This document shows positions 4,060 through 17,566 of a stretch of DNA of 17,566 nt, piece by piece (positions within the stretch are counted from its first letter, which is position 1; each line of letters starts with the position of its first letter). The stretch lies in IMG/VR virus record IMGVR_UViG_3300045988_103705. One strand, written 5' to 3'. Origin of the DNA: a virus. The notes below the pieces were generated by a model, which did no database searches, had not been told where the DNA came from, and worked only from the letters and a program-made list of their open reading frames with translations. Position numbers and translations under genes: made by a program.

Positions 4060-4088
4060 ATAATAACATATAAAATAAAGATTGTCAA
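4060..4088 (-). promoter_or_regulatory. Promoter TTGACA-N17-TATTAT driving the wHTH regulator gene. The -35 overlaps the thyX stop codon.
   Basis: Minus strand reads TTGACA ATCTTTATTTTATATGT TATTAT, followed by AAAGAGGAAAA and the ATG. Confidence 0.55.
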
Positions 4089-4711
4089 TCAAGAGCAATA
4101 TCATCAAAGATTACAGGGATTTTTTCCTTGACTTTATTAAGTGCAATAATTGCTACTTCTCTTATTTGCGGATGGGCGGCTGAAGAGCAGCGAAGCTTGA
4201 AGAAATGCCGCCACTCCCGCAAATTCGCAGTCATAACTACCTCTGTTTTTAAACTATTAGGTAGAACTGCTCTTGCTTCCTAAGGAGTGCATCCGGCAGA
4301 GAGCATATTAAAATATTCTTCTTCCGCATTTTGACAAGCATTATACCAATGATTGTAGGCTGGACTGCTCTTGATTAAGAAACAAGGTTCAATAACAGTA
4401 ATTTCATTTCCGAACCCGTCTTTTGAATAATTGCAATATCTTGTAGATTCTTGACAATAGGCAGCCAATCTATGACGAACAATTTCATGGCTAACACCTC
4501 TATCGCAAATAAATTTAAGAGTAAAAGAGCAATGCTCGAGGACTGCTTCATGTCCTCTTTTAATAATATTCTAAACAAATTTTACAGCACTATCTTCTGT
4601 AATCTTATCTTCAGATTTATAACAAACTCTACCGCACTGTTCAATTCGTTTAAGAATTATCTTACCGTCAATAGGTGTAATCAGTTCAACATCTGGCTTA
4701 ATAATTTTCAT
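4085..4711 (-). CDS. thyX: Flavin-dependent thymidylate synthase ThyX with two in-frame TAG codons (4571-4573 and 4280-4282). Stop is TGA.
   Basis: One frame gives MKIIKPDVELITP...KFV[TAG]NIIKRGHEAVLEHCSFTLKF...HEIVRHRLAAYCQESTRY (the RHR-x7-S-x-R ThyX motif) ...SAGCTP[TAG]EARAVLPNSLKTEVVMTANLREWRHFFKLRCSSAAHPQIREVA. The ORF-track pieces 4375..4578 and 4280..4468 are fragments of this gene. RBS AGGAATAAT upstream. Confidence 0.85.
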
Positions 4712-4712
4712 A

Positions 4713-4988
4713 TTATTCCTCACTTAAATTATATCCAATAAGTTCCATACAAGGATTTATTAATCGCAATAATATCTCTACTTCATCAATTACGAATTTT
4801 TCCTTCAAATCTCTATTTTTTAGAAATTCAGAATAACTAATACAATTTAGTCCAATAATTCCATATTGTTCTGCTTTAATTCTCATTGAGCGTGGATTGC
4901 TACATACAAAAATAGCATCATTATCTTTAGCATATTGCATTAGTTGATAGGTTTTTCCAGTACATCTGTTACCAATAATTCTAAACAT
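4713..4988 (-). CDS. Small (91 aa) P-loop NTPase-like protein with a minimal Walker A (GNRCTGKT) and Walker B (FVIDE).
   Basis: Intact ORF. RBS GGAGGG 6 nt upstream. Start codon overlaps the GIY-YIG gene stop (TAATG). Confidence 0.45.
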   Translation of the reverse strand: MFRIIGNRCTGKTYQLMQYAKDNDAIFVCSNPRSMRIKAEQYGIIGLNCISYSEFLKNRDLKEKFVIDEVEILLRLINPCMELIGYNLSEE

Positions 4989-5892
4989 TAAGACCCTCCG
5001 CGAGTGGTATTTAAACCAAAATCTTTCGTTTTATAAAACTCAATCCAATAAGTTTCTCTCTCATTTAAATTTTCCCTTGAAACTTCTTCTAAAATCTCAA
5101 AGGTAAAACTCCAGATTTCTACATGGTAGAATATAGTTTATTGGTTGCTTTTCCGTAAGTTAAAGCAGATTTAATATGTTGTCTAAAACGTTCTTTTATA
5201 TCAACTGACTATCCTATATAGGATTTCCCAGTGGTCAAATCAGTTATCCTATAAATTCCACAATATTTAATTGCTTTTGGGAATAACCGAGCTGTTAATA
5301 TATCATAAGCTGGTTTATAATACACTTCCCATATTAACTTATCTATGCTTTCTTTTTTGACAAATCTAGGTTGCAACTCACGCAATAATGTAATATCATT
5401 TATATCAATTTCATCAAGAGCTAAACGATAGTAATCTTGATTAGAGTCAATCTCTTCCTATCTTTGTTGAGCCTAAATATAAGCAAGTTGTTTAGCTTGT
5501 AAATCCGCTAATTTACTGGATTCGATAGAAATTTTATTTGATAAATCTTGACTTTTAGCATTAAAAGTCATAGTAAGCTCATTTTCTTTTTCTTCATAGG
5601 ATTTTAAAAGCGCGGAAATGCGAATCTAGTATGCCTCATCAGCTTGCTTTTGTGCATTTTCCCGCATTTCTTCCTAAGATTTTACTAGAGAAGAAAGAAT
5701 TTCATTTTCAGAGTATATATTTTCTTTTATATTAGATAATACTTCTCTATTATGTTTTATTTCCTATTCTATCTCTGAGTTTTTCCTCTAATTATTTATA
5801 TTAACTTCAATTATTTGATGCTCTTGTTTCTTGAGATAATAGATATAAATTATTAACCCGATTATAGTAATTAATAATAACCCTATAATCAT
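4988..5892 (-). CDS. Membrane-anchored coiled-coil protein with a C-terminal GIY-YIG nuclease domain. Eight in-frame TAG codons plus an apparent 1-nt deletion near 5105-5108, so it may be a frameshifted pseudogene or carry a sequencing error.
   Basis: ATG at 5890-5892. Protein is MIIGLLLITIIGLIIYIYYL (TM helix), then an EKQ-rich coiled coil containing TAGs, then CGIYRITDLTTGKSYIG[TAG]SVDIKERFRQHIK...NKLYSTM[TAG]KSGV, and after a frame change FTFEILEEVSRENLNERETYWIEFYKTKDFGLNTTRGGS. The span is 905 nt, not a multiple of 3. Confidence 0.55.
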
Positions 5893-6540: not shown

Positions 6541-7647
6541 TTATGAGAAAATTTCATCTATAATACAATCTTTTGCGTCTTTATCTTCTCTCCACAACTT
6601 TAATACTGGGTGTCTTAATGTATGTTCTTTTTTATCAATAGACATGCAATCAAGAGAAACAACTTTATTAAGATAGTTCTGCGGATTTTCAGTCATATCG
6701 CGCTTCATGTCATCAGTTAGACCAGAACTAACCGTACCTAATTCTATTAGTTCGCCTTGATTATCATAAGCGCCAACTTTAATTGCTGTATTCCATCCAT
6801 AGAAATAGTATCTACTAATAGGGATTGTTCTATAATTGGGAGATCTAATTGCTTTATAGGAATTTATTTTTTCTTGTTCTACCCATACTCCATTCTCGCC
6901 TTGTTTTTCAATAGCCCAATACTCCCATGTATCTATCTCTTTTCCTGTATATTCTTTTGTTGGAGGACAAAAACCTATGCAGATTAAATCAATAGAATCC
7001 ATCTGTTTAATTTTAATTGTAGACCAAGCGGGACGTTTTCCAGGAGTATAAGGATAATCCCTTTTCTTTAAAACCGCGCCTTCGCCGCCACTTTTCAAGA
7101 TTCGAGAGATTTCTTCTTCAAGATTAGTGTCTACTTTTACTGCTAGCCGCAAGAAATTATATTGTGATAAATTATGTTTTTCCCATACTGCCGCGAGGAT
7201 TTTATATCTATCTTCTGCACCGACATTTACTAAATTGATATTATCATATTCAATTATGTCATGTATATAATAATGAATAGGATTATCTTTTTGCCTTTTG
7301 ATAGCTAAATCTGGTAGGCATCCCATTATGCTTGTTACTGTTTTAGATGTTCCTCCAGGATAATAAATCTCGCCAATTAAAATTGTATTTGATGGCATAC
7401 AATTTAAGGCTTCAATAATATGAGGTACATTTGCACCTTTTTCAGAGAGTAATCCAGTTGTTGTACTTGTATTACGAGAAAATAGATAACTGTAGTTATC
7501 TGTCTTTTCAAACTCATACCAATATCCATCAATTTTTTCTTCGAGAAAATAATCTCCAGATTGGCACATTTCAGAAAGCATAGATTCTTTACCAGCAGGT
7601 AATTTCCACACCTTCATAGCATCTATCATTTTAGCTTCAGGATACAT
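6541..7647 (-). CDS. ATP-dependent DNA ligase.
   Basis: 368 aa. Motif I EEKIDG (KxDG). EGAVLKK...PGKRPAWSTIKIK matches the EGhhhK and K-x-K ligase motifs. Confidence 0.7.
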   Translation of the reverse strand: MYPEAKMIDAMKVWKLPAGKESMLSEMCQSGDYFLEEKIDGYWYEFEKTDNYSYLFSRNTSTTTGLLSEKGANVPHIIEALNCMPSNTILIGEIYYPGGTSKTVTSIMGCLPDLAIKRQKDNPIHYYIHDIIEYDNINLVNVGAEDRYKILAAVWEKHNLSQYNFLRLAVKVDTNLEEEISRILKSGGEGAVLKKRDYPYTPGKRPAWSTIKIKQMDSIDLICIGFCPPTKEYTGKEIDTWEYWAIEKQGENGVWVEQEKINSYKAIRSPNYRTIPISRYYFYGWNTAIKVGAYDNQGELIELGTVSSGLTDDMKRDMTENPQNYLNKVVSLDCMSIDKKEHTLRHPVLKLWREDKDAKDCIIDEIFS

Positions 7648-7904: not shown

Positions 7905-7937
7905 AAAGATAAGAGTGGTTTTACCACTTTTATCTTT
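7905..7937 (-). terminator. Hairpin terminator (about 15-bp stem with one mismatch) overlapping the stop codon of the GyrA-like gene.
   Basis: aaagataagagtggt / accacttttatcttt followed on the minus strand by AGTTGATTTTTCTTTTTT. Confidence 0.55.
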
Positions 7938-10302
7938 AAATCTTGGCTACTGAAATAATCTTATCATTATTTTTTATCATTATATTTCCCATAGAAATTC
8001 TTGATAGCTTGGGAAAATCTTTTACACTAACGACAATAGAACTCTTATTACCAGAAATTAAAATATCATTATCATCAGACACCAATTCTGCTCCGACAAC
8101 TGTTCCTTTGTAACATGATACTCCTTTGCCACCGCGGTTTTGTTTATTAAACTCTTTTAGCTCAATTTTCTTTCCAAGACCATCTTCTGAAATAATAGCA
8201 AGATAATCTGCATTATTACTTATTGGTAATGCAGCGATAATACTATCATCATCGGATATATTCATTCCTTTTACTCCTTGCGCAGTTCTAGAAGAAATTG
8301 GCATTTCCGCAGTATCAAATCTTATAGTCATTCCATTTTTAGTAACAAGTATCATTTCCTCTTGATTTATAAAAGTTACTGCGGCGAGTTCGTCACCGTC
8401 TTTTAACTTAATTGATACAATTCCAGTTCTCTTCATTGCATCATATTCTTCCAGAGGAACTTTTTTGACTATTCCTTTTTTAGTAGCAAAGAATATAAAC
8501 TTTTTATCTGTATCTCTTGTTAAAGTAGTATATGCCATAGGAACTTCATTATCTTCAAAAGTAATCAGAGTAGATAAGGATACGCCGATAGAATTGTTAT
8601 TTCCTTCTGGAATATTGTCCACGAACAGTCTATACATCTTTCCTTTTGATGAAAATATCATCAAAGTATCTTGTGTATTCGTGGCAGAAGAAAATGTTAT
8701 GATGTCATTAATTTTCATTCCAGTAGTATTTCTTTTTTGAGGTTTAAAAACCTTTTTTGCGATTCTTTTTACTGTACCTTTATTAGAAATAATAACAACA
8801 CAATCTTCTGGCTCTACAACCACTTGTTCTTTCTCTTGTTTAGGGATTTCTGTATTAATAAGTTTTGTGCGGCGAGCATCTCCATATGTATCTTTAAGTT
8901 CGGTAATAAGTTTAATTAACTTATTATTCCTTACTTCTTTATTATTTAACAACTCATTACACTTAGCTATAAACTCTATTTTTTCGTTTAGCTCGTCAAC
9001 TAACTCTTGTTTATCAATGCGAGTTAATTTGCCAAGTTTCATATCTAAAATAGCTTTAGCTTGAATATCATCTACATCTAAGAAAGCAATTAGTTCTTTC
9101 TTTGCTTCATTAGTGTTATTTGCACTTTTAATAATTTTAATAACTTCATCAATCTTATCAACAGCAGCGATCAATCCCTCAAGAATATGTTTGCGGGCCT
9201 CAGCTTTTTCCTTATCAAACTGAGTTGCTTTAATTAATACATCTTCCTGATGGCTGACATAAATCTGTAATAAATCTATCATTGAGCAAAGTCTAGGAGT
9301 TCCATTTACAATATAATTCATATTATAAGAAATAGAAGATTGTAAGTCAGTTAATACAAATAATTGATTTAATGCTTTAGATACAGAAACACCATCTTTT
9401 ACATAAAATACAAGCCTATTATTACCGATATTTGATTCATCATCAAAATCTTCAATAATCTCACTTAATGTTTCAATATTCTTCTCTATTTGCTCTTTTA
9501 TTTTATTTCGATAGGTTCTATAAGGAATACTTGTAAAGATAATTTTTTGCCCATCAATCTCATAGTCGCCTTGAATTTTCAAAGAGATTGTGGATTTTCC
9601 CGTTTTAAACGCGCTCTTTACATCCTTGATATTTAGAACAGTTCCGCCAAGAGGGAAATCTGGGCCAGGAATATAGGTTAGTAATTCATCAATAGTGAGC
9701 GAGCCTTTTTGAATTAGAGCAATTGCTGCATTACATACTTCTGTTAAATTATGTGGAGCGCTATTATGGGCCATGGAAATACCAATGGCTTGTCTTCCAT
9801 TGCAAATAGCATTTGGAAAAAGGGCTGGTAAAATCACTGGCTCCATAAATTCTCCATTATATGTTTCTTTAATTGGAACTACATTTTTCTTGTAATCATT
9901 CATCATTATATCAGCAAATAGTGAAGGTTTTGCCTCTGTATAACGAGAAGAAGAAAACATATCATTATTTTCTTGAGTTCCTAATTGTCCTTGTCCTGTA
10001 ATAAGAGGATAACGCATTAAAAATGGTTGTGCCATCTTTCGAAGAACACCATAGCAAGCAATATCGCCATGAAAGTAAGAGGTGGCTAGAGTAGAACCAA
10101 CAATAGCATTACACTTTTTGGTCTTACTCTTATTATTCATCTTCAAATAATCTTCCATAGTCCAAATGATTTTTCTTTGCGCGCTTAACAGCCCATCCTC
10201 CGCCGCAGGAATGGCTCTATCAGTTAAAACCTCTTCTGCATATGTTAAGAATGTGTTTTTTGCTTCATCAAGAATATCTACTTCTGTAATTAAACTACTC
10301 AT
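7936..10302 (-). CDS. Type II DNA topoisomerase subunit A (GyrA/ParC-like).
   Basis: 788 aa. N-terminal region conserved with GyrA (GDIACYGVLRKMAQPFLMRYPLITGQGQLG). Active-site tyrosine motif FSSSRYTEAK. Confidence 0.85.
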   Translation of the reverse strand: MSSLITEVDILDEAKNTFLTYAEEVLTDRAIPAAEDGLLSAQRKIIWTMEDYLKMNNKSKTKKCNAIVGSTLATSYFHGDIACYGVLRKMAQPFLMRYPLITGQGQLGTQENNDMFSSSRYTEAKPSLFADIMMNDYKKNVVPIKETYNGEFMEPVILPALFPNAICNGRQAIGISMAHNSAPHNLTEVCNAAIALIQKGSLTIDELLTYIPGPDFPLGGTVLNIKDVKSAFKTGKSTISLKIQGDYEIDGQKIIFTSIPYRTYRNKIKEQIEKNIETLSEIIEDFDDESNIGNNRLVFYVKDGVSVSKALNQLFVLTDLQSSISYNMNYIVNGTPRLCSMIDLLQIYVSHQEDVLIKATQFDKEKAEARKHILEGLIAAVDKIDEVIKIIKSANNTNEAKKELIAFLDVDDIQAKAILDMKLGKLTRIDKQELVDELNEKIEFIAKCNELLNNKEVRNNKLIKLITELKDTYGDARRTKLINTEIPKQEKEQVVVEPEDCVVIISNKGTVKRIAKKVFKPQKRNTTGMKINDIITFSSATNTQDTLMIFSSKGKMYRLFVDNIPEGNNNSIGVSLSTLITFEDNEVPMAYTTLTRDTDKKFIFFATKKGIVKKVPLEEYDAMKRTGIVSIKLKDGDELAAVTFINQEEMILVTKNGMTIRFDTAEMPISSRTAQGVKGMNISDDDSIIAALPISNNADYLAIISEDGLGKKIELKEFNKQNRGGKGVSCYKGTVVGAELVSDDNDILISGNKSSIVVSVKDFPKLSRISMGNIMIKNNDKIISVAKI

Positions 10303-10314
10303 TTATACACTTCC

Positions 10315-12204
10315 TCATTCAAAATTAAATCCTAATTCTTCTGCATTATCATAGATATATTGCTTGCGGGGTTCAACTGCGCTTCCCATCAAAATTTCGA
10401 GCAATTCTGTGGTAGCTTTGGCATCACTGATAGTAATGCGTTTATATCTTTCATTCATAAAACATACTTTTTGCAGATCCTCTGGATTTAATTCTCCCAA
10501 TCCCTTAGCTCTAAGTAAATCATAACTGCCGCTATGATTCTTTTTCCACTCTTCAAGTTCATTGTCACTATAACAGTAATACTCTTTTCCTTTTTGTCGA
10601 ATAATATATAATGGAGTTACAGCTCTATATAACTTACCAGCTTCAATAAGAGGACGCATATATGTATAGAAGAAAGTAATAAGCATTAATTCAATATCTG
10701 CACCATCACTATCTGCATCGGCCGTGATTACAACTTTATCAACGGTCAATTTACTAATATCAAAATCTTTACCAAAGCCTCCACCAAGGATCCTAATAAT
10801 ATCAGACATTTCTTGGTTAGAAAGCAGCTTATCAATAGCAGTCTTTAATGGGCTGATAATTTTTCCTCGCAACATATAAATGCAATCCGTTTTAGGATTT
10901 CGCGCTTCTACTGCGGAAGCTCCTGCGGATAGTCCCTCAACAAGCAAGAGATTACGATCTTTAGGGATACGATTTCCGCAATCAATAAACTTATTACTAA
11001 GTTTCATTTTTGCCTTTAATCCGGTTTCTTTCTTTGTCTTTATTCCTCTTGCTGCCTCTCTTGCTTTACGAGCTGCCTCTCTTGCTTTTCTAGCATTTAA
11101 TGCTTTATCCGCGATACTTTTAATTTCTTTTTCATTTGTTGTGAACCAATATTGCAGCTCTTCTGCTATTGCTTGCGTAAAAGGTTTCATATCTAGTTTT
11201 GTGACACGAGATTTTACTTGAGCATCATATCCAATATTTGGTGCTGTAATATTAAAAACAAGATACATTCCTTCTTGGCAATCATCTCCAGAGAGATTTT
11301 CATCCTTATCTTTTAGCCACCCTTTTTCTCGGAAGAATTTATTAAATTCTCTTGTTAAAAGGGTTTTAATTTGCGTAATATGCGGACCAGCTTCTGTTAA
11401 ACCAGTATTTACATATGGGACAATCGTAGAAGAGTAGTTATTTGTATAAGTTAGAGCTAAATCCAACTTATTTTTACCTTCGGAAAAATTAATTGAGAAA
11501 CGATTTTTCAGAATCTCTTTTCCCTTAACGCCTTCATCTAACAAATCCATAAGACCATTCTTAGAGAAGAACTCTGTCTTTTTTCCATTATCATCTAGTT
11601 TGATAGTTAGCCCCGGACAGAGACATACAATAGTTTTAAATAAGGAGCTTAATGCTTTTGTGTCTGGCTTTGGATCAGTAAAAAACTCTTCACTTGCAAT
11701 CCAGAAAACAGAAGTTCCATGAACATTTTTATCAACCTTACAAGAATCTCTAGATTCAAAAATGCCCTCTTTGAATCTTACTTGTTCTCCTTCTCCATCT
11801 CTATATGTCCACACAGTTAATTCGTGACTAAGATAAGTTGCAAGTTTGCTACCAATACCAAAACTACCAAGAGAAGTTCCCTCATAAGTTCCATCTTCTC
11901 TATATTTACCACTGGTATTTAATACACTAAATGCGGCTTCTAGAATTGTTTTCCCATCTTCTCTAAAAGAATTAGGAATAAATCCTTGACCATGATCGCT
12001 GACAGACACTCTGGTACCATTAATTTGTACGTCTATTTCATTACCGTGACCCAATCTAAATTCATCTACCGAGTTTGATACAATCTCTACTACTAATTGA
12101 GTAGAAGTTGATGTATCTCCGCAATATACCCCAGGTCTTAAACGAGTAAATTCTAGAGGACTTAATGACTCAATACTTTTTTCATTATATAACTTATCTG
12201 ACAT
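10315..12204 (-). CDS. Type II DNA topoisomerase subunit B (GyrB/ParE-like). Stop is TGA.
   Basis: 629 aa. GHKL ATPase N-terminus (LRPGVYCGDT...VVEIVSNSVDE). Toprim LLVEGLSAGAS and MLRGKI. Contains a short tandem KAREAAR KAREAAR repeat. Confidence 0.85.
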   Translation of the reverse strand: MSDKLYNEKSIESLSPLEFTRLRPGVYCGDTSTSTQLVVEIVSNSVDEFRLGHGNEIDVQINGTRVSVSDHGQGFIPNSFREDGKTILEAAFSVLNTSGKYREDGTYEGTSLGSFGIGSKLATYLSHELTVWTYRDGEGEQVRFKEGIFESRDSCKVDKNVHGTSVFWIASEEFFTDPKPDTKALSSLFKTIVCLCPGLTIKLDDNGKKTEFFSKNGLMDLLDEGVKGKEILKNRFSINFSEGKNKLDLALTYTNNYSSTIVPYVNTGLTEAGPHITQIKTLLTREFNKFFREKGWLKDKDENLSGDDCQEGMYLVFNITAPNIGYDAQVKSRVTKLDMKPFTQAIAEELQYWFTTNEKEIKSIADKALNARKAREAARKAREAARGIKTKKETGLKAKMKLSNKFIDCGNRIPKDRNLLLVEGLSAGASAVEARNPKTDCIYMLRGKIISPLKTAIDKLLSNQEMSDIIRILGGGFGKDFDISKLTVDKVVITADADSDGADIELMLITFFYTYMRPLIEAGKLYRAVTPLYIIRQKGKEYYCYSDNELEEWKKNHSGSYDLLRAKGLGELNPEDLQKVCFMNERYKRITISDAKATTELLEILMGSAVEPRKQYIYDNAEELGFNFE

Positions 12205-12795: not shown

Positions 12796-13131
12796 TTAAA
12801 TAGGACCATCGAGATCAATGGGAATATCATTAGAGGCTGAAAAATCTTCTGCGGGGATGTTATATGCAGAATTGAATTCAGTTTCTTTTAAAGCTAGGTC
12901 ATAAGTAATGCCGCCCTTTTTGTGATCTGATTTAGCCATTGCTAAATAAAAAGAACAAACTACTCCGTGGGCGCTCCATGGTAGACCAACAAGAGCACTA
13001 ATCCATGGAAGGGTTCCTAAATATCCCATATAAACACACATAAATGCCAAAAGGATACCTGACACAGTCACGACCCATAATAACATACGAATATCATTTA
13101 TAAGTTTTTTGGAAAATTCTAATTTTTTCAT
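12796..13131 (-). CDS. Holin-like protein: two TM segments, charged C-terminus, ATGA overlap with the endolysin stop.
   Basis: 111 aa. Hydrophobic helices LLWVVTVSGILLAFMCVYMGYL and ISALVGLPWSAHGVVCSFYLAMA. Lies immediately downstream of the endolysin. Confidence 0.5.
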   Translation of the reverse strand: MKKLEFSKKLINDIRMLLWVVTVSGILLAFMCVYMGYLGTLPWISALVGLPWSAHGVVCSFYLAMAKSDHKKGGITYDLALKETEFNSAYNIPAEDFSASNDIPIDLDGPI

Positions 13132-14537
13132 TTTAAACCCAGCTTTTCAGCCAATCTTCTTAACATAGTTACAGTTTCTAATCTAGTGCAGAATTTATTT
13201 GGCATCATTCTTCCAGCACTGTCTCCAGCCATAATCCCATTTGCTTTAGCCCATTCAAGATTATCGGTGCCCCAAGTTTCTTTTTCATTAGCTTTATTAG
13301 TAAGCCAAGTATTCATAAGTTCAGCGAATTTCTCGTCAGTCATATCTTCATCATCCTCCTAGATATTTGACATTAAATTATAAACATCTGTTCTTGCGGT
13401 TTCCATGCTTTTTCCAAATTTTGGAAACCAATGGTTTACATCTGCATGATTAGATCCTAACCCTAACTTGTGACTATCAGCATGACATAAAATAGTTGGA
13501 ACGGTGATACCATTTAAAGTAGTGGTTCCCAATGGATTTATGTTATACATTTTACATAAATAAGCAGTAATTTGACAAGCCTCTTCATAAATTTTGTTAA
13601 AATAATTTGCATCATTTAATCCATCTTCGCAAATTTCAAACTGAATCCATCCATTATTACAAGAACCTTTAGACCCAGAACCGCATCCCCAAGGACGATA
13701 ATTCCATGGCATCGTCTATACTGTTGTTACCGTTCCATCAGCTAATTTACCAATCCAACAGTTTAATCCAGCTTGAATAGATATATGATTCCAGTCATTC
13801 TTGCTAGTATTTTTTCCTAATTTATTTATTAAACTGGTATAGTTAGGATCATTATCGCTTGGCTGTACGTATCTTTTTAAATTAGGATTATTTGCACCAG
13901 TACTATGCCATAAGATTCCTTTGACTTGCATGGTGCGTGTTTGTTTATAGCAAGTGCTATTTGTCATCATACATTGAAGTGGTTTATTGCTATCGCTATA
14001 TTTCATTTTATTACCTCCTTCAATTACATTTGAAATGTTAGCAAATTTATTATAATACTATTGACCATAATTAGCCCTCTTTTGTTGCATAGAAAAACTC
14101 TAGTCTGAAGGTCGTTCAAACTAGAGTAATACCGCGGTAGAAGCTTCTGTGACAGAAGTAGCAGAAATCAAAATTTTAACTAAACTAGAAAAACTTGTAA
14201 TTAATTCCTAATATAAAAAATCTAATTGAGTATTTAAATCTCCAATGGATTTACCTCGACTTTGACAGAACTAAAGCAAATTTTGTTTTCTGCTCCAAAA
14301 TGTCCATTGAGCCAATCCATACCCCGCTCCATCTTTTACAAAGTTTTTGTATCTTCCGTCATCAACTGCGGAAGTATATTCTGTATCGGTCATTTTTAAT
14401 TTTTTTTCATATGTGTTCTATAAGTTAATAGAATTAAGTTCACTCTCGGCATAAAGATTGCCCATTAAACCGGCAATTCCGCAATCACTAAAACCTTTGC
14501 CTTTAAAGTATTTCCAAATAACTTGGGCATTAGTCAT
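13128..14537 (-). CDS. Modular endolysin: phage-tail-lysozyme-like domain (GIAGLMGNLYAESELN...QLDFLY...FERP), Amidase_2/PGRP N-acetylmuramoyl-L-alanine amidase, and SLH cell-wall-binding domain. Contains 8 in-frame TAG codons.
   Basis: A single frame runs from ATG 14535-14537 to TGA 13128-13130. Its only interruptions are TAGs at 14418-14420, 14271-14273, 14208-14210, 14121-14123, 14100-14102, 14058-14060, 13716-13718 and 13359-13361. ORF-track fragments 13716..14006, 13359..13712 and 13128..13343 are in-frame pieces of it. Amidase motifs are ILWHSTGANNP and NNGWIQFEICED; SLH motif is WAKANGIMAGDSAGRMMPNKFCTRLETVTMLRRL. An internal SD GAAGGAGGT lies 7 nt before the ATG at 14004-14006. Confidence 0.8.
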
Positions 14538-14539
14538 TT

Positions 14540-15394
14540 TTATTTTTTTGTAATGAAAGAGCTATATCCAGCGGATTTTAATTTATCTTTTAGTCTTTCT
14601 GCATTTAATTTCACAGAGAAAGCGCCTAATTGAACTTTATAAAAAACTCCTACTTTCTTGACATATCCGCTAAATCCTTTCTCTTCCAATTCCTTTAACA
14701 TATTCTCTGCATTGGTTTTAGATAGAAATGCTCCTACTTGAACTCTGTAAAGAACTACCTCTTGTTCTTTCTTAAAATATACACACATTACATTATCAAC
14801 TGGTCTTGCATAAATTTGAGAAGTTTTTCTTTTCCCATCTATTAGTAATCTAGTAGATCCGCCTCCATCTAAATTAATAGCATATTCTACTTTCAATTCA
14901 AGAAAAATTTGCTATAGGGCAGCATAAGCAAGACCTGGAGAATCTACGGTTACAATATAATAATTATTTTTATTCCATCCAATACAAGTCCTGCGGGCTT
15001 TATGATCTAATTCTTTTCCATCTGTTATAACTATCTTTTTGCTATCTACAATTAATGCAGGATAAGCTGCAATAAAATCTCTGGCGGTTTGTAATCTTTT
15101 TAATGTTGTATATATAAGTGTTTTATTGCCGCTAATTGCAACCCCATGGCGAAAATCAGACTAAATAACAGTTCCTTCGTCTTTATAACTAAAGCAGGTA
15201 TTGCCATTGTTCATAGCAAAGAACCCTCCATTAGTAACAATATCTGGTTTAGTAGTCTGTCTTTTATAATAAACATCTGGAGTTTCCGTCGGTTGATTAC
15301 ATAAGGCAAAGTCAATTTTTTCAATGTCTACGAAGGGAATTGTTACAATTTGAACATAAGAATAGAGACTATGTTTTTTAATGCTATATCCCAT
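14540..15394 (-). CDS. NAGPA (phosphodiester glycosidase-like) domain protein with two C-terminal SPOR domains. Interrupted by in-frame TAGs at 15161-15163 and 14912-14914 and an in-frame TGA at 14897-14899.
   Basis: ORFs 15161..15394 (..NGGFF..) and 14540..14896 (AINLDGGGST..., then two SPOR repeats YRVQVGAF.. and YKVQLGAF..) share one frame. The intervening frame encodes ..IVTVDSPGLAYAAL[TAG]QIFL[TGA]LKVEYAINLDGGGS, which fits the conserved NAGPA domain core without gaps. RBS AAAGGAGATAAAGT upstream. Confidence 0.6.
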
Positions 15395-15447: not shown

Positions 15448-16704
15448 TCAAATATATTCAGCTATTTGCGCGATTCTAGATCTATAAATATTACGGAGTT
15501 CTACTTCACCGTATATATCTTGTCCTCTATAAACTTTAGAAACTCGTTTCATTCCATTGTTTATGCCAGCAAAATGAATATCATCAACTTGAGTTTTTTC
15601 ATCGCCGTCAATGATACAAATGCAATCCTCTCCAATTCTTTGAAGAGCCAACTTAATAAGTGTACGATCTAAATTCTGAGCTTCAGAAATGTATATACCT
15701 GCTCTTGAACCATTGGTATCATATCCTCTAATATCCGACATTGGTAGTAAAATTAATTTTTCTTCGCTCATAAGATGTTCTACTCCCGTTCTACCGCCGA
15801 ATTTAGATATTAGGAGATTGCCGATTTGAGAGTCTAATAGTTTTTCATCTCTTGTTCCAGGGAGAAATCCTAATCTTGCACTATTGGCTGTTGCAACGGT
15901 ATTGCAAAATACAATAATATGATCGAGTTCGCCTTTTTCTAGCTTAGACATTAAATAGGCTAGACTAATAAATGTCTTACCAGATCCCGCGGGCCCTTTA
16001 ATTAAAGTAATTTTATTATTAGATAAACTATCAAAAAGTAACTTTTGGTAAATATCATTTTGATATGGCTTTACTTTTCCAAACCAGTTTGAATTAAAGT
16101 CACTATAATTTAAATATCTATGGTCGTTTCCAGTCCACACTCTCAAATCTACTACTTTATCATCTATATCTCTTATAATGAGATATTCTCCAACATGAAG
16201 ATTAAAATGATTCAGCTCTGGTTTTTGATAAAACTCTGTAAGATTCTCATCACTAGCAGAAATTTCTTTATATCCACTATAATTATCAGTTTCTTCTGGA
16301 ATACTTTCTATCATGTCAGACCCGAAGAATAGATTTGCAATATGCTTTAGGCTTAAATCATTTGTTACAAAGATGACTTCATCCACTCTTTTATTATTAT
16401 TATACCAAATTGCATCAGACAGTATCCTTGTATCATCCGTTACGTCAAGACACATTTCTTTAATATAGTCTTCAAAATCTGTTTGATGGATTACTACTTC
16501 ATACATATCAGGGTGCGTTTCAAATAAATGTAGCAATAATCTAGCTGAATATTTTATATCTGAATCTTTATTGTTAGCGGTTTTAATTCTTTCCAATTCC
16601 TGAAAAGTAATTGATGATACAATAAATTTTTCATCATTATTGAATAAGCCTTCTCCGCATATCAATAGTGAACAAGTATCATAGAACCGAATATCTTTAT
16701 TCAT
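15448..16704 (-). CDS. phoH: PIN-domain plus PhoH-like ATPase (YlaK-like). Stop is TGA.
   Basis: 418 aa. N-terminal PIN-like region (RFYDTCSLL...). PhoH P-loop LIKGPAGSGKTFISLAYLM. Confidence 0.8.
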   Translation of the reverse strand: MNKDIRFYDTCSLLICGEGLFNNDEKFIVSSITFQELERIKTANNKDSDIKYSARLLLHLFETHPDMYEVVIHQTDFEDYIKEMCLDVTDDTRILSDAIWYNNNKRVDEVIFVTNDLSLKHIANLFFGSDMIESIPEETDNYSGYKEISASDENLTEFYQKPELNHFNLHVGEYLIIRDIDDKVVDLRVWTGNDHRYLNYSDFNSNWFGKVKPYQNDIYQKLLFDSLSNNKITLIKGPAGSGKTFISLAYLMSKLEKGELDHIIVFCNTVATANSARLGFLPGTRDEKLLDSQIGNLLISKFGGRTGVEHLMSEEKLILLPMSDIRGYDTNGSRAGIYISEAQNLDRTLIKLALQRIGEDCICIIDGDEKTQVDDIHFAGINNGMKRVSKVYRGQDIYGEVELRNIYRSRIAQIAEYI

Positions 16705-16927
16705 AATTTTCCTCTTCCTCTTCTGATGTAGTAGTAGTAAATCCTATAACTTTTACACTCTTATTTATAGAGTTATTTAATTTATCTATTTTAGCATTAC
16801 ACTCTACTATTTTTATACTTAATCTCGCTTTTAAGAGTTCTACAAAGACAGAAATAAGCTCTTTCAAGTCCAAAATGATTGGAATACCCAACGATCCAAT
16901 AAGAATACCTATAAGTAAATATAACAA
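16697..16927 (-). CDS. Small membrane protein with an acidic C-terminus (..SEEEEENYE). TTG start preceded by AAGGTGG. Overlaps the phoH start.
   Basis: 76 aa. N-terminal hydrophobic helix LYLLIGILIGSLGIPIIL. Confidence 0.4.
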   Translation of the reverse strand: MLYLLIGILIGSLGIPIILDLKELISVFVELLKARLSIKIVECNAKIDKLNNSINKSVKVIGFTTTTSEEEEENYE

Positions 16928-16972
16928 AATGTACCACCTTCTTCTTTATATATAACAAAAAAAGAAGGAGAT

Positions 16973-17434
16973 TTAATTATTATTGCCCTGACGAAATTTT
17001 CTAACTATCGAGAGCGCCTTAGTTTGATTTTTAATGTAAGTTTTTAAGTTAGTTTCTTCTGTTTTTAATGCTTTTTCAAGTGCGGAAATTCGAGCTGAGC
17101 AGCGTCCAATTGCATAATAAAAGTTTCCAGTGGGGTCAACTTCCGCAGGACTTAATCGCTCATATTTTGTTGCCTCTTGATAATAGTCATATCTATATTG
17201 TAATTCTTTGCGAGTTTTTTTCATTTCATATTGCATAGCATTTATTCTTGCTTTTGATAAAGCGATAGTTTTACCTACCTTTTCAGAAAAAAAATCTTTA
17301 TCGCTTTCCGCTAACTTGGCTCGTCCGCTAAAGATTTTTCCATTATAATTAATTCCAACAATACATATGCCAGATTTTTCATTAACTAGCTATGTAATTG
17401 TTGGAGCTTTATATATAGCACTAATAACACTCAT
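16973..17434 (-). CDS. Hypothetical protein (153 aa) with its N-terminus extended through an in-frame TAG at 17390-17392.
   Basis: ATG at 17432-17434 is preceded by RBS AGGAGA and a promoter. The frame runs MSVISAIYKAPTIT[TAG]LVNEKSGICIVGINYNGKIFSGRAKLAESDKDFFSEKVGKTIALSKARINAMQYEMKK... and joins the ORF-track ORF 16973..17236. Confidence 0.5.
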
Positions 17435-17472
17435 TATTGTTTTCTCCTAATCTTTTAAATCTTTATATTAAA

Positions 17473-17502
17473 ATTATATCATTTATTTATAGAAAAATCC
17501 AA
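17473..17502 (-). promoter_or_regulatory. Promoter TTGGAT-N18-TATAAT with extended -10 TGATATAAT.
   Basis: Minus strand reads TTGGAT TTTTCTATAAATAAATGA TATAAT, about 35 nt upstream of the RBS and ATG at 17434. Confidence 0.5.
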
Positions 17503-17566
17503 TTTTAAGGATTTTGAAAGAAAAATTTGGTGAGCCTGCGCGAACGGAAACTCGGAGCAGAACGAG

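What the first reader, a model, noticed from the sequence alone, without database searches (positions are those of the whole stretch)
4085..4711. ThyX interrupted twice by TAG near catalytic motifs: a clean functional test of the recoding
Both TAGs lie in well-conserved parts of the flavin-dependent thymidylate synthase fold. One is just before the GHE..LEH helix and the other just before the ..ARxVLP.. segment, while the RHR-x7-S-x-R motif is intact between them. A functional ThyX requires both to be decoded, which makes this gene a compact reporter for the identity of the inserted amino acid.
Basis: partly seen in the sequence, partly recalled or inferred. Interest (0 to 1): 0.5.

Follow-up and report, generated by a model that had tools for sequence, protein, structure and literature searches.

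The report
Phage ThyX gene with two glutamine-coding TAGs
This is an intact thymidylate synthase (ThyX) gene from a roughly 146-kb gut phage that reads the stop codon TAG as glutamine; that is a known kind of phage code change, so the gene is a tidy example rather than a new phenomenon.

Summary
Window 4085-4711 (minus strand) is a 208-codon ThyX gene ending in TGA. In-frame TAGs sit at codon 47 (4571-4573) and codon 144 (4280-4282), with RHR-x7-S-x-R intact between them.

It is not a pseudogene:
- dN/dS is 0.05-0.14, and purifying selection also holds after the second TAG.
- The identical two-TAG allele occurs in three independent assemblies.

Both TAGs stand for glutamine. The nearest allele has CAA at codon 144, the next lineage has CAA at both sites, and column 144 is Gln in 71 of 71 relatives read codon by codon. 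Across the orthologous genes compared, the residue opposite a TAG is Gln in 42 of 81 cases, against a 3.3% background.

A canonical tRNA(CUA) lies about 17.4 kb beyond the window on a contig of the same phage species.

TAG→Gln recoding (code 15) is already described and proteomically validated in gut phages. Phage Phass-1 already carries a TAG-interrupted thyX.

The reporter idea is only partly sound. Codon 47 is a variable column (Ala, Gln, Arg, Glu), so enzyme activity would report read-through, not amino-acid identity.

Verdict: a new member of a known kind, of low interest.

The parts
4085..4711 (-). ThyX (flavin-dependent thymidylate synthase) coding sequence: 208 codons plus a TGA stop at 4085-4087, ATG at 4709-4711
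   Evidence: Translation. Pfam PF02511 E=1.5e-51 covering profile positions 11-191 of 191. PDB ThyX sequence matches down to E=6e-25. The AlphaFold model of the 95%-identical allele matches ThyX structures at TM 0.72-0.80.
4571..4573 (-). In-frame TAG, codon 47, read as Gln. It lies in helix 41-52, six residues before the GHE motif.
   Evidence: TAG is shared by the nearest allele (L001, L011, L013-15). The site is CAA in L002/L003 and Ala in most other relatives.
4280..4282 (-). In-frame TAG, codon 144, read as Gln. It lies at the start of helix 143-149, three residues before Arg147.
   Evidence: The site is CAA in L001 and L002. The column is Gln in 71/71 relatives (CAA 57, CAG 14), Gln in M. 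tuberculosis and C. glutamicum ThyX, and Glu144 in T. maritima.
4532..4555 (-). G53-H54-E55-A-V-L-E59-H60 motif. H54 corresponds to T. maritima His53.
   Evidence: G53, H54, E55, E59 and H60 are invariant in alignment A1.
4439..4477 (-). ThyX signature R79-H80-R81-x7-S89-x-R91, including Gln87
   Evidence: All these residues are invariant in alignment A1.
4259..4276 (-). A146-R147-A-V-L-P151 segment. R147 corresponds to T. maritima Arg147.
4717..4721 (-). Shine-Dalgarno-like GAGGA, 5 nt upstream of the ThyX ATG. It lies inside the end of the upstream 91-codon ORF, whose TAA stop is at 4713-4715.
   Evidence: Read directly from the sequence and the ORF list. That it functions as a ribosome-binding site is inferred.
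5065..5892 (-). GIY-YIG endonuclease-like ORF upstream of thyX, with 9 in-frame TAGs (41% of its Gln-type codons). It is context showing that recoding is genome-wide.
   Evidence: The Pfam GIY-YIG assignment is for the ortholog.
13128..14537 (-). Lysozyme/amidase ORF with 8 in-frame TAGs (context)
7936..12204 (-). GyrB (10315-12204) and GyrA (7936-10302). They have 0 TAG among 37 Gln codons and are TAG-free in four lineages (context: TAG avoidance).

Best explanation
The region is a functional flavin-dependent thymidylate synthase (ThyX) gene. It belongs to a roughly 140-149-kb uncultured gut phage, probably one infecting Oscillospirales (Clostridia), that uses TAG as a glutamine codon (genetic code 15).

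Proposed mechanism: a phage-encoded tRNA with anticodon CUA reads the two UAG codons in the thyX mRNA. The tRNA lies outside this window. Read-through yields a 208-residue enzyme with Gln47 and Gln144.

The two TAGs arose from ordinary Gln codons. Codon 47 went from Ala to CAA to TAG and is now fixed in this species. Codon 144 went from CAA/CAG to TAG and is still polymorphic. They behave like synonymous variants of Gln.

What is shown and what is inferred:
- Shown: gene identity, purifying selection, TAG/Gln equivalence at the codon level, genome-wide TAG use, and a tRNA(CUA) in the same species.
- Inferred: that this tRNA is charged with Gln, that it out-competes host release factor 1, and that the enzyme is active.
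For: Gene identity:
- Pfam Thy1 E=1.5e-51.
- Catalytic residues H54, R79/H80/R81, Q87, S89, R91, R147 and R174 are present and invariant.
- ThyX fold, TM 0.72-0.80.

Not a pseudogene or an error:
- dN/dS is 0.14 against L001 and 0.05 against L002.
- pN is far below pS in all three segments, including codons 145-208.
- The identical two-TAG allele occurs in independent assemblies L009, L010 and L012.

TAG means Gln:
- Window TAG/TAG, L001 TAG/CAA, L002 CAA/CAA at codons 47/144.
- Column 144 is Gln in 71/71 relatives.
- Other lineages put TAG on column 25 (Gln in 61 of 72), and on column 87 where the other 71 of 72 are Gln.
- Opposite a TAG in the orthologous genes compared, Gln appears 42 of 81 times against a 3.3% background, p about 6e-40.

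Genome-wide recoding:
- 24 in-frame TAGs in 7 of 20 genes.
- The coding fraction is 94% with read-through, and 68% if every TAG terminates.

Suppressor tRNA:
- tRNA(CUA) at L094:2544-2619 scores 61 bits against Rfam tRNA.
- L094 overlaps window 16288-17566 at 99.2% identity.
- The tRNA has U1 unpaired with position 72, G73 and canonical D and T loops.
- It is 84% identical to the Phass-1 tRNA-Sup-CTA, for which PMC10607447 reports that tRNAscan-SE analysis of the phAss-1 tRNA-SUP-CTA gene indicated Gln.

Precedent: PMC9523058 and bioRxiv 10.1101/2021.08.26.457843.
Against: - No tRNA lies in the window itself. The tRNA(CUA) is on another contig of the same species, and its charging identity is not tested.
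- Overall similarity does not settle the tRNA's isotype: 0.71 to a phage tRNA-Gln and 0.66 to a tRNA-Trp, and its anticodon stem-loop resembles tRNA-Trp.
- Likely hosts (Clostridia) lack GlnRS and use GatCAB (general knowledge), so how a CUA tRNA acquires Gln is unclear.
- Some residues opposite TAGs are Lys, Glu or Ser. This is expected for variable Gln sites but is not proof.
- There are no expression, proteomic or enzymatic data for this gene.
Confidence: 0.9

Rival explanations
1. The TAGs are a selected translational gate. ThyX, and so dTMP supply, would be made only once the phage suppressor tRNA has accumulated, and each extra TAG would lower the yield. The TAGs would then control timing or dose rather than being neutral Gln synonyms. 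This extends the best explanation and does not replace it.
For: - TAG use is strongly uneven across genes (permutation p about 0.001).
- GyrA, GyrB and ligase have 0 of 45 Gln-type codons as TAG (p=8e-4), and these three genes are TAG-free in four lineages.
- Lysin plus GIY-YIG have 17 of 45 (p=3e-7).
- The literature proposes that recoding times late genes and notes that replication genes are variably recoded (bioRxiv 10.1101/2021.08.26.457843).
Against: - ThyX's own TAG share (2 of 6) does not differ from the rest of the window (Fisher p=0.18).
- The number and positions of TAGs in thyX vary from 0 to 3 among close relatives (L002 none; L001 one; window two; L018 three). No site is conserved as TAG across lineages.
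- DnaB, Pol III alpha and RNA ligase also carry TAGs, so suppression must already be active during replication.
Confidence: 0.25
2. TAG is decoded as an amino acid other than glutamine (pyrrolysine, Trp, Glu, Lys or another).
For: - ARAGORN labels CUA tRNAs 'Pyl' by default.
- The anticodon stem-loop of the tRNA resembles tRNA-Trp.
- Column 47 tolerates several residues, and T. maritima has Glu at both equivalent positions.
Against: - Gln dominates opposite TAGs: 42 of 81 overall, 71/71 at column 144, and all 71 other relatives at column 87.
- The tRNA has canonical G18/G19 and TΨC-type loops, unlike tRNA-Pyl (tRNA-Pyl features are from general knowledge).
- Amber suppressors derived from tRNA-Trp are known to accept Gln in E. 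coli (my recollection, not checked here).
- Mass spectrometry on other code-15 phages found Gln (PMC9523058).
Confidence: 0.04
3. The gene is a decaying or inactivated ThyX pseudogene, and the TAGs are true stops.
For: Under the standard code the ORF breaks into fragments of 46 codons (50 from an upstream GTG), 62 and 49. GenBank annotates the Phass-1 homolog as a truncated 91-residue CDS.
Against: - dN/dS is 0.05-0.14, and selection persists after the second TAG.
- There are no TAA or TGA codons and no frameshifts in 208 codons.
- All catalytic residues are intact.
- The same pattern occurs in six other genes of the window.
Confidence: 0.02
4. The TAGs are sequencing or assembly errors, or a chimera of strains.
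For: Codon 144 lies in a patch of raised divergence from L001 (15 mismatches in window 4226-4475).
Against: thyX is 100% identical, with both TAGs, in three assemblies from different samples (L009, L010, L012). TAG47 is present in at least five further contigs.
Confidence: 0.01

Closest known systems
Genetic-code-15 (TAG→Gln) recoded gut phages: crAss-like, Lak, Agate and other clades (Borges et al., bioRxiv 10.1101/2021.08.26.457843; Peters et al., PMC9523058)
   Same: - In-frame TAGs in many genes, aligned with Gln in homologs.
- A phage tRNA(CUA).
- Heavy TAG use in lysis genes, with variable use in replication genes.
- A large genome: Agate is given as about 154 kb, and this species is 140-149 kb.
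   Different: Clade membership was not tested; no shared marker phylogeny was made. No close relative is in the GenBank phage set: megablast gave nothing, and GyrA reaches at most 35% identity. The proteomic validation was done on crAss-like phages, not on this lineage.
Phage Phass-1 (OQ749652) and the proposed Phassvirus genus, 'Caudoviricetes code 15 clade' (Babkin et al. 2023, PMC10607447)
   Same: - A 136-kb human-gut phage, TAG→Gln, with tRNA-Sup-CTA genes.
- A probable Clostridia host.
- The same set of replication and nucleotide-metabolism genes in the 30-kb locus around thyX (GyrB/GyrA-like, GIY-YIG, ThyX, YorF-like, AAA_24).
- Its thyX also carries an in-frame TAG at codon 22 and has Gln at the column of the window's TAG144.
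- Its first tRNA-Sup is 84% identical to the one found here.
   Different: ThyX is only 58% identical, and the other shared proteins are about 30% identical. The TAG sits at a different codon. In Phass-1 the tRNA-Sup genes lie about 3.7 kb upstream of thyX; here the tRNA is about 30 kb away.
Characterised ThyX enzymes (T. maritima TM0449, M. tuberculosis and C. glutamicum ThyX)
   Same: The fold, the RHR-x7-S signature, and the equivalents of His53, Arg147 and Arg174, with the last two at the same residue numbers as in T. maritima. The column of TAG144 is Gln in M. tuberculosis and C. glutamicum. It is Glu144 in T. maritima, a residue that was mutated for structural work (E144R; PDB 4GTC, 4GTD, 4GTE).
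   Different: Sequence identity is only about 24-28%. The nearest cellular homologs are Oscillospirales thyX at about 77%. No activity data exist.
Classical amber suppression by tRNA-Gln-derived suppressors (E. coli supE) — from general knowledge
   Same: A CUA-anticodon tRNA inserts Gln at UAG in competition with release factor 1.
   Different: Here the suppressor is phage-encoded and UAG is used as a routine sense codon (13% of Gln-type codons in the window), not as a rare mutation.

Membership tests
ThyX / flavin-dependent thymidylate synthase (Pfam PF02511 Thy1) | Profile match above the curated threshold over the whole domain | tested here: met
   175.4 bits against a cut-off of 24.8, E=1.5e-51, covering profile positions 11-191 of 191.
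ThyX / flavin-dependent thymidylate synthase (Pfam PF02511 Thy1) | ThyX signature RHR-x7-S, plus the substrate-binding Arg residues and the GHE histidine | tested here: met
   R79-H80-R81-x7-S89-x-R91, H54, R147 and R174 are present and invariant in 39 relatives. They align with T. maritima H53, R78/H79/R80, S88, R90, R147 and R174 (residue numbering from my knowledge of TM0449).
ThyX / flavin-dependent thymidylate synthase (Pfam PF02511 Thy1) | ThyX fold | tested here: met
   AlphaFold model of P0001, the 95%-identical allele: pLDDT 85.9, pTM 0.83. Its best PDB matches are all ThyX, with TMq 0.72-0.80 and probability 1.00. The exact window protein could not be submitted.
ThyX / flavin-dependent thymidylate synthase (Pfam PF02511 Thy1) | FAD-dependent conversion of dUMP to dTMP, or complementation of a thyA-deficient strain | not testable with these tools
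   Requires an experiment.
TAG→Gln (code 15) recoded phage | In-frame TAGs in several conserved genes, with ORFs restored by read-through | tested here: met
   24 in-frame TAGs in 7 of 20 genes. Coding fraction is 94% with read-through and 68% if TAG terminates.
TAG→Gln (code 15) recoded phage | TAG positions correspond to Gln in homologs, read at codon level | tested here: met
   Gln is opposite TAG in 42 of 81 cases against a 3.3% background. Column 144 is Gln in 71/71 relatives.
TAG→Gln (code 15) recoded phage | A suppressor tRNA with anticodon CUA encoded by the phage | tested here: met
   Not in the window. Present at L094:2544-2619 on a contig of the same species, which shares 99.2% identity over 1,279 overlapping bases with the window. 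Also present in the 89%-related lineage (L099, L119).
TAG→Gln (code 15) recoded phage | The suppressor tRNA is charged with glutamine | tested here: inconclusive
   U1 unpaired with position 72, G2:C71, G10, G73 and U35 fit tRNA-Gln identity rules (the rules are from general knowledge). Overall similarity does not separate Gln (0.71) from other isotypes.
TAG→Gln (code 15) recoded phage | Peptide evidence for Gln at TAG | not testable with these tools
   Shown only for crAss-like phages (PMC9523058).
Phassvirus (proposed genus, PMC10607447) | High genome-wide nucleotide identity and synteny with phAss-1 (members share 80-86%) | tested here: not met
   No megablast or blastn match. ThyX is 58% identical and other proteins about 30%. 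This is a distant relative at most.

The most novel reading that the evidence does not exclude
The TAG codons in thyX are not neutral Gln synonyms. They would form a selected gate that ties dTMP synthesis to the phage's switch of genetic code. This would place nucleotide metabolism in the suppression-dependent expression class, alongside lysis genes, while gyrase and ligase are kept TAG-free so they can be made before the switch.
Probability: 0.2. Interest if true: 0.45.

Novelty: new member of a known kind. Interest (0 to 1): 0.22.

Why it matters
It matters mainly for annotation and as a teaching-grade example. Under the standard code this essential-looking enzyme is split into three fragments, and GenBank already holds a related phage whose thyX is annotated as a truncated 91-residue protein for this reason.

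The allele series CAA/CAA, TAG/CAA, TAG/TAG in closely related genomes shows the conversion of Gln codons into TAG still in progress.

As an experimental handle, thyX complementation could give a convenient selectable read-out of amber read-through by the phage tRNA(CUA) in a heterologous host. It would not by itself identify the inserted amino acid.

Tried and rejected
- Megablast of the whole window and blastn of the gyrase region against GenBank phages found nothing useful. GyrA tblastn gave at most 35% identity. The lineage therefore could not be named from annotated records.
- The first homolog table seemed to show Gln at both sites, but P0001 had itself been translated with a recoded table (its locus is flagged as not translating to the query). 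I discarded protein-level counts for column 47 and re-read all relatives at codon level.
- No tRNA was found in the window or in the first 12 related loci. The tRNA(CUA) turned up only after walking upstream through IMG/VR with the RNA ligase.
- Assigning the tRNA's isotype by overall similarity to phage tRNAs was inconclusive.
- Rfam found nothing in the window, and no ribozyme beside the tRNAs.
- A test for TAG enrichment in ThyX against the rest of the window was not significant (p=0.18). My earlier Fisher test against a set chosen after the fact for being TAG-free should be disregarded.
- A literature search for the role of T. maritima Glu144 found no open text. Only the PDB titles confirm that E144R mutants exist.

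Full report
**Observation.** Window 4085-4711 on the minus strand translates to a 208-residue protein ending at a TGA. It has exactly two internal stops, both TAG, at codons 47 and 144. On the plus strand these are the CTA triplets at 4571-4573 and 4280-4282. The frame has no TAA or TGA, although off-frame TAA+TGA density on this strand is 6-8% of codons. An open run of this length is therefore not chance.

With the TAGs bridged, the protein matches Pfam Thy1 over the whole domain (E=1.5e-51) and solved ThyX structures by sequence.
- FV-TAG-NIIKR-GHEAVLEH.
- RHR-LAAYCQE-S-T-R.
- TP-TAG-E-ARAVLP.

A GAGGA lies 5 nt upstream of the ATG, inside the end of the preceding ORF.

**Is the gene alive?** Two related phage contigs give orthologs at 96.5% (L001) and 81.7% (L002) nucleotide identity.
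- Counting TAG as Gln, dN/dS is 0.14 and 0.05.
- Non-synonymous differences are far rarer than synonymous ones in each of the three segments set off by the TAGs. For codons 145-208 against L002, pS is 0.51 and pN is 0.07.
- The two-TAG allele is 100% identical in three further assemblies from other samples (L009, L010, L012).
- All catalytic residues are invariant across 39 relatives.
- An AlphaFold model of the 95%-identical allele (pLDDT 85.9) matches only ThyX structures, with TM 0.72-0.80.

Pseudogene and sequencing-error explanations are therefore rejected.

**What TAG stands for.** The first protein search showed Gln at both columns. However, the top hit had itself been translated with a recoded table, so I re-read everything at codon level.
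- The allele series at codons 47/144 is: window TAG/TAG, L001 TAG/CAA, L002 CAA/CAA.
- In 72 distinct thyX genes from related contigs, column 144 is Gln in all 71 others (CAA 57, CAG 14).
- Column 47 is Ala 62, TAG 7, Gln 2, Arg 1.
- Other lineages carry TAG at column 25 (Gln in 61), and at column 87 where all the others have Gln. Column 87 is the Gln of the signature motif (L018).
- Two phage contigs binned into Oscillospiraceae and Eubacterium MAGs add TAG25+TAG47 and TAG25.
- Across the orthologous genes compared in four lineages, the residue opposite a TAG is Gln in 42 of 81 cases, followed by Lys, Glu and Ser. The Gln background is 3.3%, giving p about 6e-40.

TAG therefore behaves as a Gln codon.

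**Genome context.** All genes in the window lie on the minus strand.
- Reading through TAG gives 20 genes covering 94% of the window. If TAG terminated, only 68% would be translated.
- TAG makes up 24 of 182 Gln-type codons, and its use is uneven. Lysozyme/amidase has 8 and the GIY-YIG ORF has 9. NAGPA-SPOR and ThyX have 2 each. DnaB and two small ORFs have 1 each. GyrA, GyrB, ligase, PhoH-like, YorF, AAA_24, YorH and the TrmB-like gene have none, and RNase H has no Gln-type codon at all.
- The heterogeneity is significant (permutation p about 0.001). GyrA+GyrB+ligase avoid TAG (0 of 45, p=8e-4), and all three stay TAG-free in four lineages.
- ThyX itself does not differ from the rest of the window (p=0.18).

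**The decoder.** The window has no tRNA. Relatives show the flanks: a tRNA-repair and NAD module upstream, and DnaB, RecJ-like, PIF1-like and Pol III alpha genes downstream. Walking upstream in IMG/VR found a tRNA cluster, Ser(UGA)-tRNA(CUA)-Leu(CAA)-Cys(GCA), at L094:1803-3678.
- L094 overlaps window 16288-17566 at 99.2% identity. This places the tRNA(CUA) about 17.4 kb beyond window position 17566 on the coding strand.
- The tRNA scores 61 bits against Rfam tRNA.
- It has normal D and T loops, U1 unpaired with position 72, G73 and an encoded CCA.
- It is 84% identical to a tRNA-Sup-CTA gene of phage Phass-1; tRNAscan-SE analysis of the phAss-1 tRNA-SUP-CTA gene indicated Gln (PMC10607447).
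- Its isotype could not be settled here.

**How the two sites relate to the active site.** By HMMER alignment, TAG144 corresponds to Gln in M. tuberculosis and C. glutamicum ThyX and to Glu144 in T. maritima, three residues before Arg147. PDB 4GTC, 4GTD and 4GTE are E144R mutants at exactly this column. TAG47 corresponds to T. maritima Glu46 and M. tuberculosis Arg, in a helix preceding the GHE histidine; this column varies naturally. The claim 'near catalytic motifs' is right. The claim 'both well conserved' holds only for codon 144.

**Comparison with what is known.** TAG→Gln recoding in gut phages, with phage suppressor tRNAs and heavy use in lysis and structural genes, is described (bioRxiv 10.1101/2021.08.26.457843). 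It has been validated by metaproteomics in crAss-like phages (PMC9523058).

Phage Phass-1 (136 kb, 'Caudoviricetes code 15 clade') shares the same set of replication and nucleotide-metabolism genes around thyX at about 30-58% protein identity. Its own thyX has an in-frame TAG at codon 22, and GenBank consequently annotates it as a 91-residue fragment.

The window's lineage is not in the GenBank phage set. It is common in metagenome assemblies as 140-149-kb contigs. The nearest cellular thyX genes are from Oscillospirales (Faecousia, Faecalibacterium, Angelakisella; about 77% identity), and whole-phage contigs were binned with Oscillospiraceae and Eubacterium MAGs. This is a weak host hint.

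**Verdict.** The 'clean reporter of amino-acid identity' claim is overstated, and the identity (Gln) is already inferable and has precedent. This is a new member of a known kind. The one slightly less ordinary reading, that thyX is deliberately placed in the suppression-dependent expression class, is not excluded. It is weakened by the 0-3 TAGs at shifting positions among close relatives.

Noticed in passing
L005:2015-2464, L006:2041-2490 and L007:2921-3370; about 8-9 kb beyond window end 17566 in relatives: A 149-residue YqeY-domain protein (PF09424, the GatB-like tRNA-Gln-binding domain) sits in a module with RNA ligase, Thg1, a PNK-like kinase, phosphoesterases and NAD-salvage genes, near the tRNA cluster. 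The likely hosts make Gln-tRNA through GatCAB. In that setting, this protein could help a CUA-anticodon tRNA acquire Gln.
   Followed up: no
window 7936-12204 and 6541-7647, and their orthologs in L002, L016 and L018: GyrA, GyrB and DNA ligase have no TAG among 45 Gln-type codons and stay TAG-free in four lineages. The GIY-YIG ORF (6-11 TAGs) and the lysin (3-10 TAGs) are TAG-rich in every lineage where an ortholog was found. This looks like a conserved split into TAG-avoiding and TAG-using genes.
   Followed up: partly
window 5065-5892 (minus strand): A GIY-YIG endonuclease-like ORF with a long coiled-coil-like N-terminal part lies just upstream of the thyX block. It has the highest TAG share in the window: 9 of 22 Gln-type codons.
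   Followed up: no
window 4226-4475, 14226-14475, 8476-8725 and 2476-2725: Against the 98.4%-identical relative L001, differences cluster in short patches of 11-24 mismatches per 250 bases, against 0-3 in most other 250-base bins. One patch lies inside thyX and contains codon 144. This suggests strain-level recombination mosaics.
   Followed up: partly
L004:15001-15654 (OQ749652.1, 58187-58840): The GenBank record of phage Phass-1 annotates thyX as a 91-residue CDS beginning after an in-frame TAG at codon 22. The full 217-codon frame is intact if TAG is read as Gln.
   Followed up: yes
L004:11309-11399 and L141:4314-4404: Some CUA-anticodon tRNAs in distant relatives are 91 nt long, with an extra hairpin in the variable region. 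The 75-76-nt form is the one found in the window's species.
   Followed up: no
L177 (Faecousia intestinalis CLA-AA-H192, contig of 146,701 bp) and L178 (Faecalibacterium tardum CLA-AA-H175): Two cultured Oscillospirales isolates carry identical thyX proteins that are 77% identical to the window's. They have no TAG and no phage-like neighbours within 3 kb. The sequence identity between two genera hints at a shared mobile element.
   Followed up: no
window 13128-14537 and 14540-15394; also L009:15433-16200: The species encodes at least three cell-wall hydrolase-type proteins: lysozyme2+amidase_2, NAGPA+SPOR, and a second lysozyme2. The first two lie next to a 111-residue membrane protein (12796-13131) that could be a holin.
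   Followed up: no
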